This document shows, piece after piece, positions 3,658 to 58,572 of a stretch of DNA of 64,000 nt. The stretch covers positions 466,119 through 530,118 of the forward strand of contig OZ251568.1 in the NCBI GenBank assembly GCA_965243525.1, written 5' to 3'. Source of the DNA: Spirochaetia bacterium. GTDB taxonomy: Bacteria; Spirochaetota; Spirochaetia; WTKD01. A program made the position numbers and the translations under genes. Below the pieces are notes generated by a model that did no database searches, was not told the origin of the DNA, and worked only from the letters and a program-made list of their open reading frames with translations. Each line of letters opens with the position of its first letter. The first letter of the stretch is position 1.

Positions 3658-5179
3658 TAATACGCGTTTCTCGAATCAACGTAATGCGAATTCTTCCTGA
3701 ATAGCTCAGCTCTTTTTCAATCCTCTTAGTGATATCGCGCGCTATCGTTCTCGTATCAACATCAGAAAGTGCCTCATGGTCAATGATCACCCGAAGTTCT
3801 CTTCCTGCTTGTATCGCATAGGCTTGTTTCACCCCTTCAAATTCCAAAGCAATTGATTCAAGTGCACGTAGTCGTTTGATGTATGCTTCCAGCGATTCTT
3901 TGCGAGCACCCGGGCGAGAAGCAGACAGCGTGTCTGCGATTTGTACAATGGCCGCTTCAATACAGATATATGGTACATCTCCATGGTGTGCCGCGATACA
4001 ATTCACCACCTTTTCAGATTCTTTCATCCGCTTTGCTAGTTCCACACCCAGTTCGACATGGCTTGCATCTGCATCTGAAAACAATGCTTTTCCAACATCG
4101 TGCAGCAGTCCACCGCGTTTTGCAATCACTACATCAGCGTGGAGTTCTGCAGCAAGCATTCCTGCGATATGCGCAACTTCAAGCGAATGGGTGAGCATGT
4201 TCTGCCCATAGCTCGTTCTAAAATGAAGCCTTCCAATTCCAGAAATACCTTCTTTGTTCATATTTTGAATTGAAAGGTCAAAGAGTGCTTTTTCTCCGAG
4301 TTCAAAAATATAATTTTGAATATCGACTTTTTGCTTTTCTACAATCTCTTCAATGCGCGTAGGATGAATTCTCCCGTCATTGATGAGGTATTCTAATGAT
4401 CGTCGTGCAACTTCACGTCGCACTGGATCGAAACAAGAAAGCGAAACAAATTCTGATCCGGCATCATCGATTATGATATCCACCCCAGTGAGGGTTTCAA
4501 GAGCACGAATATTTCGCCCCTCACGCCCGATGATCCGTCCCTTCATCTCTTGGTTCGGCAATTGCACCGAAACAGTCGTGTTTTCAACACTTACTTCAGA
4601 AGCAATTCGCTGCATCGATCCGACCAGCAACCGTTGTGCCAAACGCTGTGCATCCTGTGCTGCATCCTGCTCAACCTTGTTGATCAGCGATTGCGCATCT
4701 CGTTGTGCCTCTGTTTCAAGCGATTGAATAAGCATTGATTTTGCTTCTTCACTCGTGAGATCAGCAAGTTTTTCAACTTTCTTCCTCCACGATTCAATAT
4801 CCTGCTCTAGTTTTTTAGCGCCTTGATGTATTTTCCTCTCGCGAGAATCAAGTGCTGATTGTCTTCGTTGAAGTGACTGCGTTTGTGCCTCGCAAGAATC
4901 CTCACGATTTGAAAGACGTTTTTCTTGCCTTTTTAAATCGGAACGCATCTCACGAAATTCTTTTTCCTGCTCTAGACGCTCTTTTTGAAGAGCCTCTCGC
5001 GTCTTAAGAATTATTTCTTTTTTTTGTGCCTCAACTTCTTTAATTGCATCAAGCTTTAACCGTTCAGCTTTTTGTTCTTCAGATGTCAATTGAAATTTCG
5101 CATATAATAAGCGAAACAACCATCCAGCTACAATTCCCAAGAGAGGAAGTGCAATATAGACAATAACAATTATGTCCAT
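3641..5179 (-). CDS. rny: Ribonuclease Y.
   Basis: N-terminal TM helix, a long coiled coil (KAERLKLDAIKEVEAQKKEI...), KH domain (GREGRNIRALETLTGVDIIIDD) and HD domain (HSLEVAHIAGMLAAEL...LLHDVGKA). 512 aa. Confidence 0.9.
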   Translation of the reverse strand: MDIIVIVYIALPLLGIVAGWLFRLLYAKFQLTSEEQKAERLKLDAIKEVEAQKKEIILKTREALQKERLEQEKEFREMRSDLKRQEKRLSNREDSCEAQTQSLQRRQSALDSRERKIHQGAKKLEQDIESWRKKVEKLADLTSEEAKSMLIQSLETEAQRDAQSLINKVEQDAAQDAQRLAQRLLVGSMQRIASEVSVENTTVSVQLPNQEMKGRIIGREGRNIRALETLTGVDIIIDDAGSEFVSLSCFDPVRREVARRSLEYLINDGRIHPTRIEEIVEKQKVDIQNYIFELGEKALFDLSIQNMNKEGISGIGRLHFRTSYGQNMLTHSLEVAHIAGMLAAELHADVVIAKRGGLLHDVGKALFSDADASHVELGVELAKRMKESEKVVNCIAAHHGDVPYICIEAAIVQIADTLSASRPGARKESLEAYIKRLRALESIALEFEGVKQAYAIQAGRELRVIIDHEALSDVDTRTIARDITKRIEKELSYSGRIRITLIRETRIIEYAR

Positions 5180-5299
5180 TGTATTCCTCCACTACATATT
5201 TATCTGGACCCCTGCCAGACTGCCCATTATACCTAGCGACAGATATCCTTGTCAAATTGATTGCACAGATAGAATCATCCTTCTATAGTTGTAGCATAC

Positions 5300-6580
5300 A
5301 TGGCAGCGTATAGTGTCAAGAATATCGCTACGGGGAGAATTTTTGAGGATCGGTTCACCGACAAGGGATTTCTGCTGAGTGATCCAAAGTCTGCAGATGA
5401 TAGCCTGCTCCAAACGGTATATCCAAAGGATGCACGGATTGACACTTCAAAAAATACGTTTGAACGCTATGCAGGATTTATTCCCACCAATCGCCCCATT
5501 CCCCCCGGATCGCGATCAATTACCTACCATGCAACAACATTGGGTGAACATCTTGGATTAGAACAATTATACATCACCGTCAGTGGCTATGTGCCTCGAT
5601 TGGGGACTACCTACATGTCAGGAAGTTTTAAAGAATGTGAGGCCCTATCCGTCTTTGCACGCATGCCTCAGAATGCTCATGGGAAGACCCTTGTGATTGC
5701 TTCTGCTGGAAATACTGCACGCGCCTTCGCTCATATCGCTGAACTATGCGAACAACCAGTGCTTCTTGTTGTTGCAGAACAAAATGCATCAGCACTCTGG
5801 TGTCGCCATCCCGATCCTCGGTTTGTTCGAGTCTTGCATGTTGCTCATGGAGATTATTACGATGCGATTCACGCGGCAAATATCGTATGCAGCTTTGACG
5901 GTTTTATCCCAGAAGGTGGGGCAAAAAACATCGCACGGCGCGATGGCATGGGGACGACCATGCATGAGGCCATCTCCGTGATGGAAGCAATCCCCCAACA
6001 TTATTTTCAGGCAGTTGGAAGTGGTACCGGCGCAATAGCTGCCTGTGAGGCCGTGGAACGGAGAATTGAACGAGAATATCCGAATGCTCCGCTGTGCACC
6101 CTACACCTTTCACAAAATGCTCCCTTCACGTTGCTGGTTGACTCGTGGAACACCCGGACAAGATCCTTGGCAGAACTTTCTGACGATGATGGAAGAGCCC
6201 AAAGTGCAGTGATCCACGCGCCAGTCCTTGCAAATCGCAACCCAGTCTATGGCATTTCCGGTGGCGTTTTCGACGTTTTGCATAAGACAAATGGACATAT
6301 GTATGCGGTGACAAATGAGGAAACGAAACAGTCGCAGGCCGAATTCACCCATTGTGAAGGCTATGATATCGATCCTGCCGCCGCAGTAGCCTATGCAAGT
6401 CTTAAACAGGCAATTGCATTGGGGCGCATCCCCACTACCGATCTGTGCATGCTGAACATCACCGGGGCAGGATATGCAGGAATTTTTCAATCCTTCAACC
6501 CTCAACCACTTTCACCCAACTGGACAATCGATGTAGGACAGATGACTCATGACACCCTTGCATCCTTACTGCTAGAATAA
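5300..6580 (+). CDS. PLP-dependent threonine-synthase-fold enzyme, cysteate-synthase-like.
   Basis: A candidate PLP-lysine motif (MSGSFKECEA) is followed by TLVIASAGNTARAFA, the fold-type II PLP signature of the threonine synthase/cysteate synthase family. 426 aa. Confidence 0.55.
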   Translation: MAAYSVKNIATGRIFEDRFTDKGFLLSDPKSADDSLLQTVYPKDARIDTSKNTFERYAGFIPTNRPIPPGSRSITYHATTLGEHLGLEQLYITVSGYVPRLGTTYMSGSFKECEALSVFARMPQNAHGKTLVIASAGNTARAFAHIAELCEQPVLLVVAEQNASALWCRHPDPRFVRVLHVAHGDYYDAIHAANIVCSFDGFIPEGGAKNIARRDGMGTTMHEAISVMEAIPQHYFQAVGSGTGAIAACEAVERRIEREYPNAPLCTLHLSQNAPFTLLVDSWNTRTRSLAELSDDDGRAQSAVIHAPVLANRNPVYGISGGVFDVLHKTNGHMYAVTNEETKQSQAEFTHCEGYDIDPAAAVAYASLKQAIALGRIPTTDLCMLNITGAGYAGIFQSFNPQPLSPNWTIDVGQMTHDTLASLLLE

Positions 6581-6598
6581 CACAAGGAATTACAAGAC

Positions 6599-7873
6599 AT
6601 GGATATTTTTCAAAAATGCGATACAGATCAAGGAAATTTCGGAACTTTGCGCGCAGCAGGTGATCGATGTTTCACACGTCCCACACTTTCGCCGAAGCCT
6701 GGCAGAATCATGCAATCGGATGGAAAGCCCCTCATTATGTGGTCGGTGAACAATTATCTGGGACTCGCCAACCATCCAGAAGTTCAGAAAGTGGCTGAAG
6801 AGACGATACGCACTTATGGGGTGAGCGCTCCTATGGGATCGCGCATGATGAGCGGCACCACCGAGCACCACCTTGCCTTCGAGGAAGCGCTTGCTGAATT
6901 TTCTCAAAAAGAAGCTGCCTATTTGTTTAACTATGGATATATGGGCGTCCTAGGCATCGTGAGTGCCCTTGTTGGAAAAAAAGACATCGTTATTATGGAC
7001 AAGCTCGCACACGCATGCATCGTTGATGCTGCATTTTTGTCACAGGCAACCGTTCGCGTATTCAGACACAACAATCCAGACAGTCTTGAATCAATTCTTA
7101 AACGCCTCAACCACAGCGATGAAGGAGGAGTGATGATCATCACCGAAGGAGTCTATGGAATGACCGGCGATCTTGCTCCACTTCCTGATATCGTAGCGTT
7201 AAAAAATAAATACAAGGCGCGCCTCTTCATTGATGATGCACATGGCTGCGGCGTCATCGGTGAAAAAGGACGAGGAACCGCTGATCATTTTGGTGTTCAG
7301 GACGATATCGACATCTATTTCGGCACCTTTGCAAAATCTTTCGCCGGCATAGGTGGATTTGGCGCATCTTTCAAAAATGTCATCGAATGGATTGGTTATA
7401 ATGCGCGCACCCAGGTCTTCGCAAAAAGCCTTCCTATGATTTACGTGAAGACCATGCAAAAGATGTTGGAGCTCATCGAAAGCGGCGATGCGCTTCGCTC
7501 CCAACTCTGGAAAACAAGTAATGCCTTGAAAGAAGGGTTAAAAAACGCCGGGTATTTCATAGGCCCGGGGCATTCTCCCATATGCAGTGTTTTTCTTCCT
7601 CTGCACGGGAGTACCGTAGAAGAAATTGCAGGAAGAACGGTCTCTTTTTTGCGAAAAGCAGGCGTCTTCGTTTCGATAGTGGCCTATCCTGTTATTCCGA
7701 TGGGACTCTGTATGTTTCGACTCATCCCCACCGTTGAGCATCTTCCTGAAGATGTCGAAACAACTGTACAGCAGTTCATCGCTATGCGTGATGCCTTGAA
7801 ACTAGACATGTCTTTCAATGCGACTGATCTTGAAAAGATTCAACAACTCTATGGAAAAAATGTAGTGATTTGA
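6599..7873 (+). CDS. Alpha-oxoamine synthase (class II aminotransferase), serine-palmitoyltransferase/cysteate-acyltransferase-like.
   Basis: DIFQKC...PLIMWSVNNYLGLANHPEVQKVA, FIDDAHGCGVIGEKGRGTADHFGV and GTFAKSFAGIGGF (the PLP-Lys region) are alpha-oxoamine synthase motifs. The N-terminal extension is more SPT-like than KBL- or BioF-like. 424 aa. Confidence 0.7.
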   Translation: MDIFQKCDTDQGNFGTLRAAGDRCFTRPTLSPKPGRIMQSDGKPLIMWSVNNYLGLANHPEVQKVAEETIRTYGVSAPMGSRMMSGTTEHHLAFEEALAEFSQKEAAYLFNYGYMGVLGIVSALVGKKDIVIMDKLAHACIVDAAFLSQATVRVFRHNNPDSLESILKRLNHSDEGGVMIITEGVYGMTGDLAPLPDIVALKNKYKARLFIDDAHGCGVIGEKGRGTADHFGVQDDIDIYFGTFAKSFAGIGGFGASFKNVIEWIGYNARTQVFAKSLPMIYVKTMQKMLELIESGDALRSQLWKTSNALKEGLKNAGYFIGPGHSPICSVFLPLHGSTVEEIAGRTVSFLRKAGVFVSIVAYPVIPMGLCMFRLIPTVEHLPEDVETTVQQFIAMRDALKLDMSFNATDLEKIQQLYGKNVVI

Positions 7874-7897
7874 ACTGTTGTTCAGCAAGAAAATCGC

Positions 7898-9028
7898 CTA
7901 AAAGGGCAATTCCATTGTATTGTTCTTCCACTTCAGCGAACGAAATTTCATTCCATTGATCAACAGTCGGGGCAATGGTTTTCGACGACGCTTTGGTGTT
8001 AGCTGATAGGAGATGTTTTTCGTGATCGGCACCTTGTAGGCTTCGACAAATTCAATCAGAGTGCCATCCATATCCTCTATATAGGCAAAACGCCCAGAAG
8101 CCTCATTCATATCAAAAGATTCCTTGCTGTCGATAACAAATGGATAGCCAAAGGATTCGCAGGTTGTTTTCAATGCATCCATATTGGTGACGTCAAAACA
8201 GGCATGGATAAACCCCATATCTCCCCACAATCGCCCCTCATAGATTCGATTAGGCACCCGGTCCAGCACCTGCACCAATTCTATCGTGCTTTCTCGGAAA
8301 AAATGTTGTAATGGCCCGGCTGCCTTGTTTCGGAGTAGCACACGGCGGAGTTCATTTTTGCCCCCGAAAAGCGATTGCATATCCTCAAAGTTTCCGACTT
8401 CATCATAGACAATATCCGTATATCCTAAAATATCTCGATACAATATCAAAGACGCATCTATATCTGAGACCCCAATCACAACCCCCATGACTCCCCCAGT
8501 CTTGGTCCTTCCAATTGTGTTCTCACCGGGAGGATAATATTTTGGATCAGAAAACCACGACGTGCCTGTTTGAATGTTAAAGGTGTTGCCGTTAAAATCA
8601 GCCATATAAAAATGTTGATTACCTGATGGGTCTAGCAACGGTTCAGTGTGCACATATAAATCAGCAGCATAGTAGGCATCAAAACAAGGTAATACCTGGG
8701 GAGATCGAATAACCACTGCAAAAATACCAAGATCGCCGATTTTCGACATCTCAATGGATTGCTCACTGTATCGACTTTTGTATTGCCAGATTTCCAGACC
8801 GCCGCCACCTGCCATATTCATCATAAACGCAGCATGCCGCAGGTGAATTTCGCCACCGGTATAGGGAATCATCAATTCCGCAACGTCTTCATCTTGAAAA
8901 ACCATGGTGTTAAACCCAAAAAACCGTCCATACCATTGCAGAGCAGGAGCAAGCGTACTGACACCGACGCCTACTTGCTGGATGCCTCCGATACTATATT
9001 CATCGTTATTTGTTTTGTTATTTGCCAT
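7898..9028 (-). CDS. Two-domain VOC (glyoxalase/bleomycin-resistance/dioxygenase) superfamily protein.
   Basis: 376 aa. The tandem beta-alpha-beta-beta-beta-like halves (GIQQVGVGVSTL...; GVMGVVIGVSDIDASLILYRDILGY) resemble VOC modules. Function unknown. Confidence 0.4.
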   Translation of the reverse strand: MANNKTNNDEYSIGGIQQVGVGVSTLAPALQWYGRFFGFNTMVFQDEDVAELMIPYTGGEIHLRHAAFMMNMAGGGGLEIWQYKSRYSEQSIEMSKIGDLGIFAVVIRSPQVLPCFDAYYAADLYVHTEPLLDPSGNQHFYMADFNGNTFNIQTGTSWFSDPKYYPPGENTIGRTKTGGVMGVVIGVSDIDASLILYRDILGYTDIVYDEVGNFEDMQSLFGGKNELRRVLLRNKAAGPLQHFFRESTIELVQVLDRVPNRIYEGRLWGDMGFIHACFDVTNMDALKTTCESFGYPFVIDSKESFDMNEASGRFAYIEDMDGTLIEFVEAYKVPITKNISYQLTPKRRRKPLPRLLINGMKFRSLKWKNNTMELPF

Positions 9029-9077
9029 ATTCTAGTCCTGTGATTGCATACCTCTCACTAGCACAGATAGCCTCGCA

Positions 9078-9701
9078 CTATACAGGGATCCTGTCAAGAA
9101 TAAAGATCAGTCCAAACACGAGCACCCAGACAATACAAAATAGCGATGAGAATGGATGCACCGTGAATGTGTTCTGGTCTGTGTGTTCAGCATGCAATAT
9201 GTCATAGGCATCTGTACTGAGTTTTTTGCCAATGTTTTTTATCGTAGTTATGCGGATTGCTTTATGTTTTTTTATGAGCATCTCAAAATAAACAAAGACC
9301 TGAAGTAGTGTTGTTCCAAATGTTCCCGGAAGCCTGAGCGATGGATGGATGCTTGATAGGGAAAAAAAGACCATTGCAACAAAGGTTTGTCCACGAAGCA
9401 GCCCTTGGGTGATGGCGCCGAGGGTAACTGGAAAGGAAAAAATATAGAACAGAACCGTTCCGTTGGGAATAAACACATGACTGATCAAGACTGCAATGAG
9501 CAGCATCACGAAATACCAAATGCGGATGCGTTTTTTTTGCATAGTCGCACAGAGCAAGAATACACCGATGCATACAAACCTATAGACAATTGATTCTATT
9601 GATACAAATGCAATGAATGTGATGATGCCAGCACAGAGTTGTATGAAGGCTTGACGAGCAAGAACATGCTGATTCTTCTGATATATCCATGCAATCATCA
9701 A
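9078..9701 (-). CDS. Polytopic membrane protein of unknown function. It overlaps the upstream gene by 4 nt.
   Basis: 207 aa with 5-6 hydrophobic helices. It is translationally coupled (ATGA overlap) with 9698-10243. Confidence 0.4.
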   Translation of the reverse strand: MMIAWIYQKNQHVLARQAFIQLCAGIITFIAFVSIESIVYRFVCIGVFLLCATMQKKRIRIWYFVMLLIAVLISHVFIPNGTVLFYIFSFPVTLGAITQGLLRGQTFVAMVFFSLSSIHPSLRLPGTFGTTLLQVFVYFEMLIKKHKAIRITTIKNIGKKLSTDAYDILHAEHTDQNTFTVHPFSSLFCIVWVLVFGLIFILDRIPV

Positions 9702-33005: not shown

Positions 33006-34508
33006 ATGGATATAGTTCAAATATTTGATACGACATTACGAGATGGCGAACAGTCACCTGGGGCTTCTATGAGCCTAAGTCAAAAGCTAGAGATTGCTCT
33101 TCAGCTAGAGAAACTTGGTGTGGATTGTATCGAGGCGGGATTTCCAATTTCATCGCCTCATCAATTCGATGCATGCAAAAAGATATCTGAGACGGTAAAG
33201 AATTCAACCATTGCAGTGCTTGCTCGGTCTACGCACAAGGATCTTGATGCAGCTGCTGAATCGATACGAGATGCGGCCCGTCCGCGCATTCATACCTTTA
33301 TCAGCACATCACCGATTCATATGAAGTATAAATTAAAGATGGACCCCGAAACGGTTCTGGAACGTATCAAGGATTCAGTGCAATATGCACGAAATCTTGT
33401 TCCTGAGGTGGAGTTTTCTCCTGAAGATGCAACCAGAACTGAGTTTGATTTTCTCTGCAAGGCAGTTGAAATAGCGGTACGGGCTGGTGCTACAATCATC
33501 AACATTCCCGACACCGTTGGGTATACCATTTCAACTGAATATCACAATATTATCACCCTGTTGAAGGAACGCATTCCTGGAATGGAGAATGTTATTCTCT
33601 CTACGCATTGTCACAACGACCTTGGGCTTGCGGTTTCAAATTCATTGGCAGCAGTGCAAGCAGGAGCTCGTCAGATCGAGGTGACAATTAACGGTATCGG
33701 TGAACGAGCCGGGAATACTGCCTTGGAAGAGGTTGTTATGGCACTCTATGTTCGACGAGATGTTCTCAACGTAGAGACTAATATCCAAACAAAATATCTC
33801 TATCCCACTTCTCGACTGCTCTCGCACATAGTGGGCTTTCCCATTGCACGCAATAAGGCAGTGGTTGGAGAAAACGCATTTGCACACGAGGCCGGTATTC
33901 ATCAAGATGGCATGCTCAAAAATCGCGAAACTTATGAGATTATGACTCCAGAAGTCGTTGGAAGAAGCGAGAGCAAAATTGTTTTAGGACGGCATTCCGG
34001 CAAGCATGGACTCAAACATCGGCTGAAGCAACTTGAAATCTCAGTTCCTGAGGAAAATTTTGAAAAACTGTATGAGAATTTTACGGATTTAGCTGACAAG
34101 AAAAAAGAAATATTTGATGAAGACCTCTATTCGTTGATTAGCACGAGTATTGGTTCAGATGCGAACATCTATGAGTTGACTGAATTGAATGTCGTAACAG
34201 AAACCGGAAAAAACGCAACCGCATCGGTGACTGTCAAATCCGCTGAAGAAGTGCTCAAGGGATCTGCAACTGGAGATGGCCCGGTCGCTGCAATATTTGT
34301 TGCTATTGAAAAGGCTATGGGGATCAGCCCAAAACTTGTTGAATTCGATGTGCAGGCAATTACCCCTGGAAAGCAATCTATAGGTGAGGCGTCGGTTATT
34401 ATCACGCATAACAACAAAAAAAGTGCGGGAAGAGGTTCATCGACGGACATTGTTGAGGCAAGTGCGATTGCCTATCTCAATGCAATTAGCCATAGCATGC
34501 TATTGTAA
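33006..34508 (+). CDS. leuA: 2-isopropylmalate synthase.
   Basis: IFDTTLRDGEQSPGASMS...CIEAGFPISSP...HCHNDLGLAVSNSLAAVQAGARQIEVTINGIGERAGNTALEEVVMAL plus a C-terminal LeuA-dimer regulatory domain. 500 aa. Confidence 0.85.
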   Translation: MDIVQIFDTTLRDGEQSPGASMSLSQKLEIALQLEKLGVDCIEAGFPISSPHQFDACKKISETVKNSTIAVLARSTHKDLDAAAESIRDAARPRIHTFISTSPIHMKYKLKMDPETVLERIKDSVQYARNLVPEVEFSPEDATRTEFDFLCKAVEIAVRAGATIINIPDTVGYTISTEYHNIITLLKERIPGMENVILSTHCHNDLGLAVSNSLAAVQAGARQIEVTINGIGERAGNTALEEVVMALYVRRDVLNVETNIQTKYLYPTSRLLSHIVGFPIARNKAVVGENAFAHEAGIHQDGMLKNRETYEIMTPEVVGRSESKIVLGRHSGKHGLKHRLKQLEISVPEENFEKLYENFTDLADKKKEIFDEDLYSLISTSIGSDANIYELTELNVVTETGKNATASVTVKSAEEVLKGSATGDGPVAAIFVAIEKAMGISPKLVEFDVQAITPGKQSIGEASVIITHNNKKSAGRGSSTDIVEASAIAYLNAISHSMLL

Positions 34509-34543
34509 CCAAGGCATTTGCGTTTCAAAACAGTACTGATAGA

Positions 34544-36136
34544 TTGAAAGTATACGAAAAGGACAGTATGAAAAAAATAGCTATATACGACACAACACTG
34601 CGCGACGGATGCCAGGGAGTTGATATAAATTTTTCTTTGGAAGACAAGATCGATATTGCAAAAGAGCTCGATGCGATGCGTATCGATTATATCGAGGGGG
34701 GATTTCCCTTTTCAAATCCAAAAGATAATGCATTCTTCACCCGGGCTGCCTCGATGCATTGGGAACATGCCCGCATTGCATCCTTCGGCAGCACAAGAAA
34801 ACCAGATGCTCGAGCAGAGGATGATGCACAGATTCGCTCCATTCTAGATACGCAAACACCGGTAACGACCATTGTCGGAAAGAGCTGGACCGCCCATGTG
34901 CTTGAGGTCTTGCGAACAACCCTCGATGAAAATTTGCGAATGATTGAAGATTCTGTACGCTTCTTGAAAAGCGAAGGCAGAGAAGTAATTTTTGACGCTG
35001 AGCATTTTTTTGAAGGCTTCTTAAACGATCCAGACTATGCGGTAAAGGTTCTTCGCGTTGCATCAGATGCTGGTGCCGATGTGGTGGTGGTCTGTGACAC
35101 CAATGGCGGCATGCTTTCGCATATGGTGCAGGAAATTCTTGCGCAAGTGCCTAGCGATGCATTATCTGTGCTTGGCGGTCATTTTCATAACGATGCGGGA
35201 ACCGCAGAAGCAAACAGCATTGAAGCTGTATTCGCCGGAGCCCGGCATATTCAAGGAACTATCAATGGATGGGGAGAACGGTGTGGAAACGCTGACCTAT
35301 GCACTTTGATTCCAAGCTTCACCTTGAAGACAGAATTTCAACCCGCTTCTGGCAAATATCTGAACAAACTAACCAGTCTATCGCGGTTTGCCGCTGAAAA
35401 AGCAAATATCATTCACAACAAGCGACTTCCCTATGTCGGTGAGGCAGCCTTCAGCCATAAGGCAGGGCAACATGCAGATGTCATCATCAAATCCGCACAC
35501 CGCATGGAACATATCGATGCATCAATCGTTGGGAATGAACGCCATGTCATCTTGTCAGAACTTGCAGGCAAATCAACAATCATTGCTCGTCTCGAACAAT
35601 ACGGCAACTTTGATAAACAATCCCCTGAGGTAAACGAGTTGATCGAATTATTGGTGCAAAAAGAATCAGAGGGATTTTCATATGAAGCTGCTGAGGCATC
35701 CTTTGAATTGTTGATTATGAAGACCTTGAAAACCTATACTCCACTCCATCAACTACGAAACTACCACATTGAGCTGTTCAAAACCGCAGAAAGCGATAGC
35801 ACGACTGTTGCACGAATGTACCTTAATGTTGAAAATCATGAGGTGATGGGAGCCGGGGTGGGCATTGGCCCGGTTGAAACACTCGATAAGACCATTCGCC
35901 ATGCCCTGGTTCCGCAATATCCATTCCTTGAAAAGATTGCATTGACCGATTATCGAGTGCGTGTCATCGACGGCGAGCACTCCACACAGGCAAAGGTGCG
36001 GGTTTTCATAACTGCGAGTGACCACAAACAATCGTGGAACACCATTGGCGTGCATCAAAATGTCGTCGAGGCATCGTATATGGCATTGATGGATTCCTAT
36101 AATTACTATTTCAACGTGTATAAGAAAGATCTATAG
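34544..36136 (+). CDS. cimA: (R)-citramalate synthase CimA-like (2-isopropylmalate synthase paralogue, TIGR00977-type).
   Basis: IYDTTLRDGCQGVDINFS...IEGGFPFSNP...HFHNDAGTAEANSIEAVFAGARHIQGTINGWGERCGNADL. Length 530 aa, and the HxH/GWGERCGN pattern is typical of citramalate synthases such as those of Leptospira and Methanococcus. Confidence 0.7.
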   Translation: MKVYEKDSMKKIAIYDTTLRDGCQGVDINFSLEDKIDIAKELDAMRIDYIEGGFPFSNPKDNAFFTRAASMHWEHARIASFGSTRKPDARAEDDAQIRSILDTQTPVTTIVGKSWTAHVLEVLRTTLDENLRMIEDSVRFLKSEGREVIFDAEHFFEGFLNDPDYAVKVLRVASDAGADVVVVCDTNGGMLSHMVQEILAQVPSDALSVLGGHFHNDAGTAEANSIEAVFAGARHIQGTINGWGERCGNADLCTLIPSFTLKTEFQPASGKYLNKLTSLSRFAAEKANIIHNKRLPYVGEAAFSHKAGQHADVIIKSAHRMEHIDASIVGNERHVILSELAGKSTIIARLEQYGNFDKQSPEVNELIELLVQKESEGFSYEAAEASFELLIMKTLKTYTPLHQLRNYHIELFKTAESDSTTVARMYLNVENHEVMGAGVGIGPVETLDKTIRHALVPQYPFLEKIALTDYRVRVIDGEHSTQAKVRVFITASDHKQSWNTIGVHQNVVEASYMALMDSYNYYFNVYKKDL

Positions 36137-46685: not shown

Positions 46686-46991
46686 ATGCGAAAGACAACG
46701 CTCCGCTACGCCGGATATATTGGTATCGTGCTTCTTGCAACACTCATTTGGGAATTGACCGAACGAGTGTTTGCACTGTTGGCATTGTCTTTTTCACTCT
46801 CCATTGGCCCTTTTGGGGTTGATATACATGTCCTCGCAATATCAGTCTATTGTAATTTTGGATCACTCATCGGCATCATTATCGTGTATTTCATTGCAAA
46901 ACGTCACAAGAAAAAATCGACCCCCCAGCGTAGCACTCGTCAGGGATCTTCAGCACAGACAAGACATGCAGATGCTCCAATTAAAAAATAA
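46686..46991 (+). CDS. Small membrane protein (2 TM helices plus a basic tail). It overlaps the maf start.
   Basis: LRYAGYIGIVLLATLIWELT... and VLAISVYCNFGSLIGIIIVYFIA helices followed by KRHKKKSTPQRSTRQGSS. Confidence 0.3.
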   Translation: MRKTTLRYAGYIGIVLLATLIWELTERVFALLALSFSLSIGPFGVDIHVLAISVYCNFGSLIGIIIVYFIAKRHKKKSTPQRSTRQGSSAQTRHADAPIKK

Positions 46992-56078: not shown

Positions 56079-57104
56079 TTAGGCTGAGGGATCATTCTCA
56101 GGAGTTTCTGCATCCCTTGATTCCTCTGTCTGTGCTGTCGTCTCTTGCTCAGCAGCGGCGTTCTCCACTTCTGAAACCTGCTCAGAAATCACAGCTACCT
56201 CTTCTTCCGCAGTTGCCGTTTCTTGCTCAGCGGCGGTGTTCTCCACTTCTGAAACCTGCTCAGAAATCTCAGCTGTCTCTTCTTCCACAGTTGCCGTTTC
56301 TTGCTCAGCGACGGTGTTCTCTACCTCTGAAACCGGTTCAGAAATCTCAGCTGCCTCTTCTTCCACAGTTGCCGTTTCTTGCTCAGCGGCGGCGCTTTCT
56401 ACTTCTGCAGTCTGTTCAGAAATCTCAGCTGCCTCTTCTTCCACAGTTGCCGTTTCTTGCTCAGCGGCGGCGCTTTCTACTTCTGCAGTCTGTTCAGAAA
56501 TCTCAGCTGCCTCTTCTTCCGCAGTTGCCGTTTCTTGCTCAGCGGCGGTGTTCTCCACTTCTGTGGTCTGTTCAGAAATCTCAGCTGCTGCTGCTTCCGC
56601 AGCTACTGTCTCTGCATCCAATAATTCAACTGTTTCACGAGCATGTTCATCAGAGACAGGAAGAACTTCTACTGGGATAGTAACCGAAATATCTGCATAA
56701 AGATTGATTTTTGCTGAATACGTTCCCACTTGTCGAATGGAATACTGCTCAAGGTGAATGTTTTTTCTATCAACTTGAATATTTTCAGCTTCCAATGCTT
56801 GGAGAACATTGGCACTGGTTATTGAACCAAACAATTTTCCTGTCTCAGCAGCGCGCACATAAGCCCGAAACAAGGTGCCATTCAATCGCTCTTGAATCGA
56901 CTGCATCGCAACTACTTTTTCTTTTTTACGTTGCTCAATGGCGGAAGTGCGGCTAGCCATCATAGAACGAGTAGTGTTGTTATACGGCAAAGCAAACCGC
57001 TGTGGGAGAAGATAATTACGAGCATATCCGCTTTTAACGGTATGCACATCGCCTTCCTCGCCAAGATTTGGTACGTCCTGTATCAGGATAATTTTTACAC
57101 TCAT
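56079..57104 (-). CDS. rplI: 50S ribosomal protein L9 with an acidic tandem-repeat C-terminal extension of about 190 aa.
   Basis: MSVKIILIQDVPNLGEEGDVHTVKSGYARNYLLP...LGSITSANVLQALEAENIQVDRKNI is the L9 core (about 150 aa). It is followed by 26-aa repeats (EISEQTAEVESAAAEQETATVEEEAA) x about 6. Confidence 0.8.
   Translation of the reverse strand: MSVKIILIQDVPNLGEEGDVHTVKSGYARNYLLPQRFALPYNNTTRSMMASRTSAIEQRKKEKVVAMQSIQERLNGTLFRAYVRAAETGKLFGSITSANVLQALEAENIQVDRKNIHLEQYSIRQVGTYSAKINLYADISVTIPVEVLPVSDEHARETVELLDAETVAAEAAAAEISEQTTEVENTAAEQETATAEEEAAEISEQTAEVESAAAEQETATVEEEAAEISEQTAEVESAAAEQETATVEEEAAEISEPVSEVENTVAEQETATVEEETAEISEQVSEVENTAAEQETATAEEEVAVISEQVSEVENAAAEQETTAQTEESRDAETPENDPSA
56140..56615. 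repeat. Tandem 78-bp repeat, about 6 copies, two of which are identical. It is the coding part of the rplI tail.
   Basis: The motif cttgctcag recurs at 56145, 56223, 56301, 56379, 56457 and 56535. Units 56379-56456 and 56457-56534 appear identical. Confidence 0.85.
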
Positions 57105-58056: not shown

Positions 58057-58572
58057 CTATTTATCCTTAAACGGAAGCAGCGCAAGCACCCGAGCTCGTT
58101 TTATCTCTCGTACGACTTTTCTTTGCATTTTTGCAGGAATGCCAGTTATACGTCGCGGCAATATCTTTCCTTGCTCGGTAGTAAAGTTCTTCAAGATATC
58201 TGGTTTTTTATAATCGATTTTTAAAGATCGAAAATCAATCCGGTCACGGTATCGAGAGCCATAGCGCCCATGCCCACGATAGTCTGATCGTCGAGATCCT
58301 TGCGCATTGCGTGGTCGTGAATCTCGTGATTCAGATCGCGGTTCTCGCGGCCCTCGTGATTCAGTCCTCTGTTCTCGCGATTCGGGTCGTGATTCAGATC
58401 GTGGTTCTCGTGATTCAGGACGTGACTCAGTCCTCTGTTCTCGTGACTCAGGTCGTGACTCTCGTGACTCGGGACGTGATTCAGTCCTCTGTCCTCGCGA
58501 TTCAGGTCGTGCCACATCTTTCTTTTCTTCTGTTGTAGGTGTAGTTATATCTTTTTGATTTTCTTCTGCCAT
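58057..58572 (-). CDS. rpsR: 30S ribosomal protein S18 with an Arg/Glu/Ser-rich repeat N-terminal extension of about 100 aa.
   Basis: C-terminal core [50 protein letters not shown]-terminal [10 protein letters not shown](S/P)R(P/S)ESREQ repeats. Confidence 0.75.
58300..58500. repeat. Tandem repeat with a period of about 54 bp (about 3 copies) encoding the ESRPESRE repeats of the rpsR N-terminal extension.
   Basis: The units gattcag[at]cctctgt[tc]ctcg[ct]ga[ct]tc[ag]ggtcgtga... recur. Confidence 0.55.

What the first reader, a model, noticed from the sequence alone, without database searches (positions are those of the whole stretch)
5300..7873. Adjacent cysteate-synthase-like and SPT-like genes: a candidate sulfonolipid (capnine-type) head-group pathway in a spirochete
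Two co-directional genes separated by 18 nt encode (i) a threonine-synthase-fold PLP enzyme (SGSFKE...TLVIASAGNTARAFA) and (ii) an alpha-oxoamine synthase with a serine-palmitoyltransferase-like N-terminal extension (SVNNYLGLANHP, FIDDAHGCGVIGEKGRG). Established knowledge: in Bacteroidetes, capnine/sulfobacin biosynthesis uses exactly this pair, a cysteate synthase (a ThrC homologue that makes cysteate from O-phosphoserine and sulfite) and a cysteate-C-fatty-acyltransferase of the SPT/AOS family. A KBL (2-amino-3-ketobutyrate CoA ligase) would instead pair with threonine dehydrogenase, and a true thrC normally sits with thrB/hom. A sulfonolipid or sphingoid-type lipid pathway in a flagellated spirochete would be unexpected. 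The pair sits between the housekeeping ymdB-rny pair and a block of unknown membrane/secreted genes.
Basis: partly seen in the sequence, partly recalled or inferred. Interest (0 to 1): 0.7.

Follow-up and report, generated by a model that had tools for sequence, protein, structure and literature searches.

The report
Spirochete sulfonolipid head-group gene pair
Two adjacent genes in this flagellated spirochete encode the first two enzymes of sulfonolipid (capnine-type) synthesis, a lipid pathway that a 2023 review describes as apparently limited to Bacteroidota, and the same pair sits at the same chromosomal spot in many uncultured spirochetes.

Summary
Gene 1 passes NCBI's curated cysteate-synthase equivalog model (368 bits, cutoff 325; threonine synthase models reach 44 bits at most). 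Its only strong PDB relative is a solved cysteate synthase. Gene 2's best PDB relatives are the two solved cysteate acyltransferases (381 and 350 bits; SPT 247, KBL 205, BioF 166). It keeps every SulA catalytic residue, including Lys276 (SulA Lys281), which is Ala in the SPT compared. The organism is a spirochete: two FlaA genes, flagellins, and RNase Y relatives that are all Spirochaetota. The pair lies beside rny in nine divergent spirochete genomes and is missing from that site in Spirochaeta lutea. Spirochete acyltransferases form a clade separate from 80 Bacteroidota sequences. One correction: the window's synthase is the ThrC-derived (archaeal/Alistipes) type, not the CBS-like CapA type. 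No ketoreductase or N-acyltransferase lies in the window. In passing, the convergent VOC-fold gene (7898-9028) also sits in SDR-CFAT-VOC operons in Bacteroidota, which makes it a candidate unrecognised pathway component. Verdict: interpretation supported; a known pathway in a new phylum; biochemistry untested.

The parts
5226..5289 (.). Divergent promoter-like region between rny and gene 1: a perfect TTGACA-18-TATAAT on the minus strand (5255->5226, facing rny) and a weaker TGCACA-16-TATAGT on the plus strand (5262-5289), ending 10 nt before the gene 1 ATG.
   Evidence: Consensus scan and sequence. This is pattern-level evidence only. The number of promoter-like sites in the region (11) is close to the shuffle expectation (7.8 +/- 2.7).
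5300..6580 (+). Cysteate synthase of the ThrC-derived (archaeal/Alistipes) type, 426 aa. Predicted reaction: O-phospho-L-serine + sulfite -> L-cysteate + phosphate. The PLP lysine is K111 (SGSFK111E).
   Evidence: It scores 368.4 bits on the TIGR03844 equivalog (cutoff 324.9), while ThrC models give 44 bits at most. PDB 9k3c 'Cysteate synthase' scores 315 bits, and the best ThrC chain scores 19.7 bits. It keeps 88 of 95 near-invariant family positions, including K111, S135-F143, E205-M217 and G240-G244. It sits on a long branch inside the spirochete-type clade.
6581..6598 (+). 18-nt intergenic spacer with an AGGA ribosome-binding-like motif (6585-6588) and no terminator. The two genes are probably co-transcribed.
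   Evidence: Sequence and scan. Co-transcription is inferred. In the other eight spirochete genomes with the pair the two genes overlap by 4 nt (L086, L090) or are separated by 10-138 nt.
6599..7873 (+). Cysteate-C-fatty acyltransferase (CFAT; SulA/CapB type alpha-oxoamine synthase), 424 aa. Predicted reaction: L-cysteate + acyl-ACP/CoA -> 3-ketocapnine-type 2-amino-3-oxoalkane-1-sulfonate + CO2. The PLP lysine is K246 and the discriminating lysine is K276.
   Evidence: PDB scores are 380.7 bits for 28eh 'Cysteate-C-fatty acyltransferase' and 350.4 for 7u7h SulA, against 246.7 for SPT, 205 for KBL and 166.6 at best for BioF (5jay). N51, H138, D212, H215, K246, K276 and R374 correspond to SulA N53, H140, D217, H220, K251, K281 and R376. 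K276 is invariant in 209 CFAT-type sequences and is Ala in SmSPT, and all 82 near-invariant positions are kept. No NCBIfam equivalog cutoff for BioF, Kbl, SPT or ALAS is met.
7898..9028 (-). Two-module VOC (glyoxalase/dioxygenase-fold) protein, 376 aa, convergent with gene 2 (24 nt between the stop codons). It is a candidate associated component of unknown function.
   Evidence: Pfam Glyoxalase match. It lies next to the pair in 8 of 9 spirochete genomes and is absent from the S. lutea locus, which also lacks the pair. Homologues at 40-44% identity lie next to CFAT in 6 of 80 Bacteroidota loci, including SDR->CFAT->VOC operons. An SDR is directly upstream in 34 of 65 metagenomic VOC loci. It has no close solved structure. 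Its membership of the pathway is inferred and not shown.

Best explanation
The two genes form a two-step cassette for the head group of a capnine-type sulfonolipid. Gene 1, a PLP enzyme descended from threonine synthase, replaces the phosphate of O-phospho-L-serine with sulfite to give L-cysteate. Gene 2, a PLP alpha-oxoamine synthase of the SulA/CapB type, forms the cysteate external aldimine and carries out a decarboxylative Claisen condensation with a long-chain acyl thioester (acyl-ACP or acyl-CoA). The product is a 3-keto-2-amino-alkane-1-sulfonate (3-ketocapnine). A reductase encoded elsewhere, and possibly an N-acyltransferase, would finish the lipid, which presumably resides in the cell envelope. 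What is shown here is family assignment, active-site conservation, conserved adjacency and the host phylum. What is inferred is the substrates and products, co-transcription, the existence of the later steps, and the presence of the lipid in the cell. The cassette is an old, vertically inherited feature of a broad lineage of Spirochaetota. It parallels the capA-capB cassette of Flavobacteriia but uses a non-orthologous cysteate synthase.
For: Gene 1 scores 368.4 bits on the TIGR03844 cysteate_syn equivalog (cutoff 324.9), and the best threonine synthase model gives 44.2 bits. Its only strong PDB match is 9k3c 'Cysteate synthase' at 315 bits. K111 and the SAGNTARAF, GGAxNxARRDGM and GSGTG motifs are conserved. 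Gene 2's top PDB matches are 28eh 'Cysteate-C-fatty acyltransferase' (380.7 bits) and A. finegoldii SulA 7u7h (350.4 bits), ahead of SPT at 246.7. All SulA catalytic residues are present, including the Lys281 equivalent K276; PMC9304779 reports that this lysine distinguishes SulA from Spt and that K281A is inactive. K276 is invariant in 209 CFAT-type sequences and is Ala in SmSPT. The pair is adjacent and co-directional next to rny in 9 divergent spirochete-type genomes: the window, L081, L083, L085, L086, L088, L089, L090 and L092. CFAT identities there are 57-71% and synthase identities 39-59%, which parallels RNase Y at 77% and then 62% or less. Both ORFs staying intact at that divergence implies purifying selection. 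The other spirochete synthases score 477-485 bits on TIGR03844. The host is a spirochete: FlaA x2, FlaB, FliD, FlgK and FliW are present, and all named RNase Y relatives are Spirochaetota.
Against: No enzyme assay or lipid data exist for any spirochete, and I found no report of sulfonolipids in the phylum. The one lipidomics survey that included Treponema denticola listed ceramide sulfonates in other organisms and none for T. denticola, but it is not known whether T. denticola has these genes. The window contains no ketoreductase (SDR) or N-acyltransferase, and no homologue of the Bacteroidota SDR or acyltransferase linked to these genes was found in the window or the spirochete loci. Gene 1 is on a long branch, about 42% identical to other spirochete copies, and differs at 7 of 95 near-invariant positions (G53T, P73S, S78A, P159A, S223E, G229E, P316V). 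Four of these residues are shared with its nearest relative. Its equivalog score is above the cutoff but about 110 bits below its relatives' scores. The spirochete CFATs form a separate clade from all characterised enzymes, so their substrate specificity is extrapolated. The source of sulfite is unknown.
Confidence: 0.78

Rival explanations
1. This is ordinary amino-acid metabolism. Gene 1 is a threonine synthase, and gene 2 is a 2-amino-3-ketobutyrate CoA ligase (Kbl) or 8-amino-7-oxononanoate synthase (BioF).
For: Both belong to the same superfamilies (PALP; Aminotran_1_2). Gene 2's top NCBIfam hit by score is bioF at 309.9 bits, and JGI annotates many homologues as 'glycine C-acetyltransferase'.
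Against: Gene 1 scores 31.5-44 bits on ThrC equivalogs whose cutoffs are 167-303, but passes the cysteate synthase model. Gene 2 fails every cutoff (bioF 310 of 426; Kbl 298 of 460). Genuine Kbl genes in related spirochetes (L090, S. lutea L091) score 605-651 bits and are only about 31% identical to gene 2. PDB Kbl and BioF chains score 166-205 bits against 350-381 for the CFATs. No tdh, thrB or hom gene lies nearby.
Confidence: 0.02
2. Gene 2 is a serine palmitoyltransferase that makes ordinary sphingolipids, and gene 1 supplies cysteate for something unrelated, or is merely adjacent.
For: Gene 2 aligns over its full length with bacterial SPTs (246.7 bits to S. multivorum SPT; 308.6 bits on an SPT equivalog). 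[quoted passage not shown]
Against: It fails the SPT equivalog cutoffs (308.6 of 500; 293.8 of 640; 230.5 of 670). It has Lys where the S. multivorum SPT has Ala (K276). It scores about 100-130 bits higher against CFAT structures than against any SPT. It is adjacent to a cysteate synthase in 9 of 9 spirochete genomes that carry it.
Confidence: 0.05
3. The enzymes do make cysteate and condense it with an acyl thioester, but the product is not a membrane sulfonolipid. It could be a short- or medium-chain sulfonated amino-ketone acting as a signal or secondary metabolite (compare the CqsA/CAI-1 type AOS enzymes), or an end product that is never reduced or N-acylated.
For: No reductase or N-acyltransferase is linked to the pair in any spirochete locus. 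The spirochete CFATs are a clade distinct from all characterised enzymes. A TetR regulator is divergently linked in four genomes (L083, L088, L089, L092), which is more typical of conditionally expressed pathways.
Against: In characterised producers the reductases are also unlinked, and they are generic SDRs (PMC11211663), so their absence nearby says little. Gene 2 keeps all 82 positions that are near-invariant across CFATs. CAI-1 synthases are very distant (88 bits).
Confidence: 0.1
4. In this small (1.79 Mb contig) genome the cassette is a decaying remnant that no longer functions.
For: Gene 1 is on a long branch with 7 substitutions at near-invariant positions, two of them unique to the window (P159A, G229E). 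Its model score is about 110 bits below those of its relatives.
Against: Both ORFs are full length with no frameshifts. Gene 2 retains 82 of 82 near-invariant positions. Gene 1 still passes the equivalog cutoff and keeps the PLP-binding and phosphate-loop motifs. Four of the seven residues are shared with a relative that is only 59% identical, so they have persisted over long evolutionary time.
Confidence: 0.05

Closest known systems
Alistipes finegoldii SulA (cysteate acyl-ACP transferase, PDB 7U7H; PMC9304779) with the archaeal-type cysteate synthase of Alistipes/Odoribacter
   Same: Both enzyme types are the same. The synthase is ThrC-derived (TIGR03844). The acyltransferase is an AOS-fold enzyme 45% identical to SulA, with identical catalytic residues including Lys281 (window K276).
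   Different: The host is in the phylum Spirochaetota. The genes are adjacent and probably co-transcribed, whereas cys, cfat and kcr are scattered in A. finegoldii and C. gleum (PMC11211663), and no TIGR03844-type synthase was detected within 10 kb of CFAT in 80 Bacteroidota loci. The spirochete CFATs form a separate clade.
Capnocytophaga ochracea CapA-CapB (with CapC of Ornithobacterium), the capnine pathway
   Same: It is a two-gene cysteate synthase -> cysteate-C-fatty acyltransferase cassette with the same chemistry. CapA and CapB have consecutive accessions, and a CapA-like gene sits 40-200 nt upstream of CFAT in 9 Bacteroidota loci, with a tenth about 1 kb upstream.
   Different: CapA is CBS/CysK-like (NCBIfam NF053679; L056 scores 576 bits). 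The window's synthase is ThrC-derived and did not match that model at E <= 0.01. This is non-orthologous displacement of the first enzyme within an analogous cassette.
Archaeal cysteate synthase (Methanosarcina MA_3297 type; coenzyme M biosynthesis), the founding member of TIGR03844
   Same: It belongs to the same protein family and has the same predicted reaction.
   Different: In methanogens the enzyme is linked to sulfopyruvate decarboxylase (ComDE) and feeds coenzyme M. Here the partner is a lipid-forming acyltransferase, and no CoM genes are in the window.
Bacterial serine palmitoyltransferase (e.g. Sphingobacterium multivorum SPT, PDB 3A2B)
   Same: The fold, PLP chemistry and N-terminal domain are the same, and the active site is otherwise identical.
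   Different: Ala is replaced by Lys at the discriminating position. The PDB score is about 100-130 bits lower than for CFATs, and the SPT equivalog cutoffs are not met.

Membership tests
Cysteate synthase, ThrC-derived type (NCBIfam TIGR03844) | Whole-protein score at or above the curated equivalog cutoff, and above scores on threonine synthase models | tested here: met
   It scores 368.4 bits against a cutoff of 324.9, and the best ThrC model gives 44.2 bits against a cutoff of 303. This is lower than other spirochete copies, which score 477-485 bits.
Cysteate synthase, ThrC-derived type (NCBIfam TIGR03844) | Closest solved structure is a cysteate synthase and not a threonine synthase | tested here: met
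   9k3c 'Cysteate synthase' scores 315 bits over residues 3-412, while the best threonine synthase chain scores 19.7 bits.
Cysteate synthase, ThrC-derived type (NCBIfam TIGR03844) | PLP-binding lysine and family-invariant motifs retained | tested here: met
   K111, S135-F143, E205-M217 and G240-G244 are conserved, and 88 of 95 near-invariant positions are kept. The seven differences are at 53, 73, 78, 159, 223, 229 and 316, and their structural roles are unknown.
Cysteate synthase, ThrC-derived type (NCBIfam TIGR03844) | Catalyses O-phosphoserine + sulfite -> cysteate | not testable with these tools
   This requires an enzyme assay.
Cysteate synthase, CapA type (NCBIfam NF053679, CBS/CysK-like) | Match to the CapA equivalog model | tested here: not met
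   NF053679 is not among gene 1's NCBIfam hits at E <= 0.01, whereas the gene upstream of CFAT in L056 scores 576 bits on it.
Cysteate-C-fatty acyltransferase (SulA/CapB/CFAT) | AOS fold with the PLP lysine and conserved catalytic residues (SulA N53, H140, D217, H220, K251, R376) | tested here: met
   N51, H138, D212, H215, K246 and R374 are all conserved.
Cysteate-C-fatty acyltransferase (SulA/CapB/CFAT) | Lysine at SulA position 281 (Ala in Spt), proposed in PMC9304779 as the residue that distinguishes sulfonolipid from sphingolipid condensing enzymes | tested here: met
   K276 lies in FAKSLPM. It is invariant in 209 CFAT-type sequences and is Ala in SmSPT.
Cysteate-C-fatty acyltransferase (SulA/CapB/CFAT) | More similar to characterised CFATs than to SPT, KBL, BioF or ALAS | tested here: met
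   PDB scores are 380.7 and 350.4 bits for the CFATs, against 246.7 (SPT), 205 (KBL), 166.6 (best BioF, 5jay) and 166.4 (ALAS).
Cysteate-C-fatty acyltransferase (SulA/CapB/CFAT) | Falls inside the clade of experimentally characterised CFATs | tested here: inconclusive
   In an NJ tree rooted on SmSPT, the spirochete sequences (126 tips) form a clade separate from the clade (82 tips) that holds all 80 Bacteroidota sequences and both crystallised enzymes. This is a distance tree on biased sampling with no support values.
Cysteate-C-fatty acyltransferase (SulA/CapB/CFAT) | Uses cysteate and a long-chain acyl-ACP/CoA | not testable with these tools
   This requires an assay or heterologous expression with cysteate feeding.
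2-amino-3-ketobutyrate CoA ligase (Kbl) | Score at or above the NCBIfam Kbl equivalog cutoffs | tested here: not met
   Gene 2 scores 298.5 of 460 and 249 of 493. True Kbl genes of L090 and S. lutea score 605-651 bits.
Threonine synthase (ThrC) | Score at or above the ThrC equivalog cutoffs | tested here: not met
   Gene 1 scores 44.2 of 303, 31.5 of 167 and 27.6 of 358.
Serine palmitoyltransferase (bacterial) | Score at or above the SPT equivalog cutoffs; Ala at the SulA-281 position | tested here: not met
   Gene 2 scores 308.6 of 500, 293.8 of 640 and 230.5 of 670, and has Lys instead of Ala.
Complete sulfonolipid (sulfobacin-type) pathway | 3-ketocapnine reductase (SDR) and capnine N-acyltransferase present | tested here: inconclusive
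   Neither is in the 64-kb window or the spirochete loci. The rest of the 1.79-Mb genome could not be searched, and in known producers these genes are unlinked generic SDRs.

The most novel reading that the evidence does not exclude
The convergent VOC-fold gene (7898-9028) belongs to a previously unrecognised, probably metal-dependent component of sulfonolipid biosynthesis shared by Bacteroidota and Spirochaetota, for example an isomerase or epimerase acting on the alpha-amino-ketone intermediate alongside the ketoreductase. On the same reading, the PlsC-like acyltransferase found in AT-SDR-VOC clusters would be the still-unidentified capnine N-acyltransferase. The spirochete cassette would then be a minimal three-gene sulfonolipid locus. 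This would show that sulfonolipids are an ancient envelope lipid of a second phylum.
Probability: 0.25. Interest if true: 0.75.

Novelty: new member of a known kind. Interest (0 to 1): 0.55.

Why it matters
Sulfonolipids are bioactive. The literature retrieved here links them to gliding motility, choanoflagellate multicellularity, von Willebrand factor antagonism and TLR4 signalling in IBD. A 2023 review describes their synthesis as apparently limited to Bacteroidota. A conserved, vertically inherited synthase-acyltransferase cassette in a broad lineage of Spirochaetota predicts that a second phylum makes capnine-type lipids. That would change how sulfonolipid signals in environmental and gut lipidomes are attributed, and it raises the question of what such lipids do in a spirochete envelope. 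The tight two-gene cassette is also a compact unit for heterologous production. The recurrent SDR/VOC/acyltransferase neighbourhoods give concrete candidates for the pathway steps still unassigned in PMC11211663.

Tried and rejected
1. The genome-contig scan with gene 2 returned only Bacteroidota at 42-48% identity. It missed the source genome and all spirochetes because the 8-mer patterns were too specific, so the organism could not be named. Exact look-ups of the window's own proteins also failed.
2. Structure prediction for the VOC protein failed twice.
3. A profile search of PDB with the VOC alignment gave only generic single-module VOC hits of 28 bits or less, which assigns no function.
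4. I first read the VOC-CFAT adjacency as a strong link. The reverse test showed a CFAT in only 3 of 80 VOC loci, so I downgraded it to a lead. The SDR-VOC pairing (34 of 65 loci) and the SDR->CFAT->VOC operons then partly restored it.
5. The PF07456 and 207-aa membrane genes were considered as pathway members and rejected. They remain in S. lutea, which lacks the pair, so they are backbone synteny.
6. Recent horizontal transfer was considered. The pair's GC and GC3 are only slightly raised (0.47-0.49 against 0.42-0.45), and synteny across nine genomes argues for old, vertical inheritance.
7. An Rfam scan found no riboswitch or other RNA element near the pair.
8. Literature searches found no paper on the 9k3c structure, none on spirochete sulfonolipids, and none linking a glyoxalase-fold protein to sulfonolipids.


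Full report
**Observation.** All quoted motifs are present. An AGGA motif lies 10 nt before the second ATG, and no terminator-like site separates the genes. ymdB and rny lie upstream on the opposite strand. A perfect sigma-70 consensus faces rny, and a weaker promoter-like site faces gene 1. That promoter evidence is pattern-level only.

**Gene 1.**
- On NCBIfam it scores 368.4 bits on the equivalog model TIGR03844 'cysteate synthase' (cutoff 324.9). Every threonine synthase model gives 44 bits or less, against cutoffs of 167-421.
- Against all PDB sequences, its only strong relative is 9k3c, 'Cysteate synthase' (315 bits, residues 3-412). Threonine synthases score below 20 bits.
- In an alignment of 128 family members it retains 88 of 95 near-invariant positions. 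These include the PLP lysine (K111) and the SAGNTARAF, GGAxNxARRDGM and GSGTG motifs.
- It differs at seven positions. Four of those residues are shared with its nearest relative, which is 59% identical, so they are old lineage-specific changes.
- It sits on a long branch inside the clade that holds the other spirochete synthases. Its model score is about 110 bits below theirs (477-485 bits).

**Gene 2.**
- It is an alpha-oxoamine synthase that meets no NCBIfam equivalog cutoff: bioF 310 of 426, SPT 309 of 500, Kbl 298 of 460.
- Its best PDB relatives are 28eh 'Cysteate-C-fatty acyltransferase' (380.7 bits) and 7u7h (350.4 bits). The latter is A. finegoldii SulA. These are well ahead of SPT (246.7), KBL (205) and BioF (166.6 at best).
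- The SulA paper reports that SulA and Spt active sites differ only at Lys281 (Ala in Spt). It also reports that K281A is catalytically inactive, and it proposes this residue as the discriminator (PMC9304779).
- Mapping the alignment shows that N51, H138, D212, H215, K246, K276 and R374 match SulA N53, H140, D217, H220, K251, K281 and R376.
- Across 209 CFAT-type sequences K276 is invariant, and it is Ala in S. multivorum SPT. Gene 2 keeps all 82 near-invariant positions.
- True Kbl genes found in two related spirochete loci score 605-651 bits on the Kbl models and are only about 31% identical to gene 2. That disposes of the KBL alternative.

**Host and evolutionary context.**
- The window encodes two FlaA sheath proteins, FlaB flagellins, FliD, FlgK, a flagellin-like hook-associated protein, FliW and rod proteins.
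- All named relatives of its RNase Y are Spirochaetota: Spirochaetaceae and Spirochaetales MAGs, Alkalispirochaeta sp. and Spirochaeta lutea. The nearest is 77% identical and the rest are 62% or less. The organism is therefore a deep-branching flagellated spirochete on a 1.79-Mb contig. I could not name it.
- Exact-protein look-ups recovered eight further spirochete-type genomes in which the synthase and acyltransferase are adjacent and co-directional next to rny. Seven of these also have the VOC/membrane/PF07456 trio downstream. Four have a divergent TetR regulator upstream.
- Identities to the window are 57-71% for CFAT and 39-59% for the synthase. This parallels RNase Y and fits old vertical inheritance.
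- S. lutea has the same backbone, but at this site it lacks the synthase, the CFAT and the VOC gene.
- In an NJ tree the window, the spirochete loci and 118 of the 119 top database hits form a clade. That clade excludes all 80 Bacteroidota CFATs and both crystallised enzymes.

**Comparison with the known pathway.**
[quoted passage not shown] It also notes two routes to cysteate: CapA in Capnocytophaga, and a homologue of the archaeal cysteate synthase in Alistipes and Odoribacter (PMC10191378).
- NCBIfam has a separate CapA model (NF053679, CBS/CysK-like). A gene scoring 576 bits on it sits directly upstream of CFAT in L056, and similar genes occur in ten Bacteroidota loci in all. This matches the consecutive accessions of C. 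ochracea CapA and CapB.
- The window's synthase is the other, ThrC-derived type.
- No TIGR03844-type synthase was detected within 10 kb of CFAT in any of the 80 Bacteroidota loci (tblastn with the window's synthase). Cys, cfat and kcr are reported as scattered in C. gleum and A. finegoldii (PMC11211663).
- The spirochete arrangement is thus an analogue of capA-capB built with a non-orthologous first enzyme.
- Published gene surveys used loose thresholds. The two I checked (PMC9304779, PMC11525784) do not mention spirochetes, and the distribution section of PMC11211663 names none.
- A full-text search for sulfonolipid plus spirochaet* found nothing relevant.

**What is missing.** Pfam scans of the window's other genes found no SDR and no acyltransferase. 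tblastn with the Bacteroidota SDR and acyltransferase described below found nothing in the window or the spirochete loci. Only the first two steps are encoded here. In known producers the reductases are also unlinked, so this does not argue strongly against a complete pathway.

**The VOC gene, noticed in passing.**
- The convergent gene at 7898-9028 encodes a two-module VOC-fold protein. Its core is strongly conserved: the invariant residues include Q17, Q18, E79, E326 and E329, and H275 is nearly invariant. These positions resemble the metal ligands of glyoxalase I and methylmalonyl-CoA epimerase, a comparison I make from memory and did not test.
- It has no close solved structure.
- It accompanies the pair in 8 of 9 spirochete genomes. 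Homologues at 40-44% identity lie beside CFAT in 6 of 80 Bacteroidota loci.
- Searching metagenomes from the VOC side, only 3 of 80 loci contained a CFAT. However, 34 of 65 loci had an SDR directly upstream on the same strand, and 10 of 47 had a PlsC-like acyltransferase plus SDR plus VOC.
- The same SDR family gives SDR->CFAT->VOC operons in three Saprospiraceae loci. It also gives CFAT->ThrC-like->SDR->VOC in a Bacteroidales MAG.
- This makes the VOC protein, the SDR and the acyltransferase candidates for the remaining or unrecognised steps. It is guilt by association and needs a phylogenetic profile and genetics.

**Verdict.** The enzymes are known kinds. The new elements are the phylum, the cassette organisation and the VOC association. 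No biochemistry or lipid data exist, gene 1 is unusually divergent, and the later steps were not found. I put confidence that the cassette makes a 3-ketocapnine-type product at about 0.78. I am less confident that a mature membrane sulfonolipid is made. I rate interest at 0.55.

Noticed in passing
window 7898-9028 (-); L034, L039, L067, L072, L075, L078; L081-L090: A two-module VOC/glyoxalase-fold protein convergent with the acyltransferase recurs next to CFAT in 8 of 9 spirochete genomes and 6 of 80 Bacteroidota loci. It is absent from the S. lutea locus, which lacks the pair. It has no close solved structure. Its invariant or near-invariant Q17/Q18, E79, H275 and E326/E329 suggest a glyoxalase I or epimerase-like metal site.
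   Followed up: partly
L093-L172 (metagenomic VOC loci); L072/L075/L078 9050-12315; L039 900-6124: An SDR (~268 aa) sits directly upstream of the VOC gene in 34 of 65 loci, and a 445-aa PlsC-like acyltransferase precedes SDR-VOC in 10 of 47. Three Saprospiraceae loci read SDR->CFAT->VOC, and a Bacteroidales MAG reads CFAT->ThrC-like PALP->SDR->VOC. These are candidate 3-ketocapnine reductase and capnine N-acyltransferase genes.
   Followed up: partly
L026, L028, L029, L045, L049, L056, L059, L068, L069, L073 (upstream of CFAT): A CBS/CysK-like PLP gene that scores 576 bits on NCBIfam NF053679 'CysteaSynCapA' (cutoff 600; only L056 was scanned) lies 40-200 nt upstream of CFAT on the same strand in nine of these loci, and about 1 kb upstream in L028. 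So two non-orthologous cysteate synthases pair with CFAT in different lineages.
   Followed up: partly
L039 2257-3576 (+): A 439-aa ThrC-like protein between CFAT and SDR-VOC falls below the cutoff on both the threonine synthase model (158 bits) and the cysteate synthase model (121 bits). It may be a third, divergent cysteate synthase lineage.
   Followed up: no
L091 (Spirochaeta lutea JNUP01000003.1) 4440-9530; L090 12374-14408: S. lutea keeps the rny...PF07456...maf-rpsB backbone but has a true Kbl (605 bits), a radical SAM gene and a fused PF07456+membrane ORF in place of the cassette. L090 has a true Kbl plus a DUF1295 gene inserted between the VOC gene and the membrane protein gene.
   Followed up: partly
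L083 9138-9803, L088 7712-8413, L089 7730-8434, L092 7332-7943: A TetR-family regulator is divergently transcribed just upstream of the cysteate synthase in four spirochete genomes. It is absent from the window and its nearest relative (L081).
   Followed up: no
window 10230-46770: In other spirochetes the PF07456 gene is followed within a few kb by maf-rpsB-tsf-frr-uppS-cdsA-rseP. In the window about 36 kb has been inserted between them (maf is at 46771). The insert carries flagellar genes (FlaA x2, FlaB, FliD, FlgK, FliW, rod proteins) and housekeeping genes.
   Followed up: no
Next to them is a histidine kinase with an N-terminal cyclic-nucleotide-binding domain.
   Followed up: yes
window 5300-6580: The cysteate synthase of the window and its one close relative evolves much faster than the linked acyltransferase. 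The synthase is 59% and then about 42% identical to relatives, against 71% and then about 60% for CFAT. Substitutions at seven near-invariant positions include two unique to the window (P159A, G229E).
   Followed up: partly
window 56079-57104 (-) and 58057-58572 (-): As listed, the ORF for ribosomal protein L9 is 341 aa, with Pfam domains only in residues 3-148. The S18 ORF is 171 aa, with the S18 domain only at residues 117-166. This suggests unusually long extensions or mis-set start codons.
   Followed up: no
window 33006-36136 (+): Two tandem HMGL-like/LeuA-dimer genes (500 and 530 aa) are present. They are probably 2-isopropylmalate synthase and a citramalate or homocitrate synthase-like paralogue.
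   Followed up: no
window 5226-5255 (-): A perfect sigma-70 consensus (TTGACA-18-TATAAT, 12 of 12) faces rny in the 120-nt divergent intergenic region it shares with gene 1.
   Followed up: no
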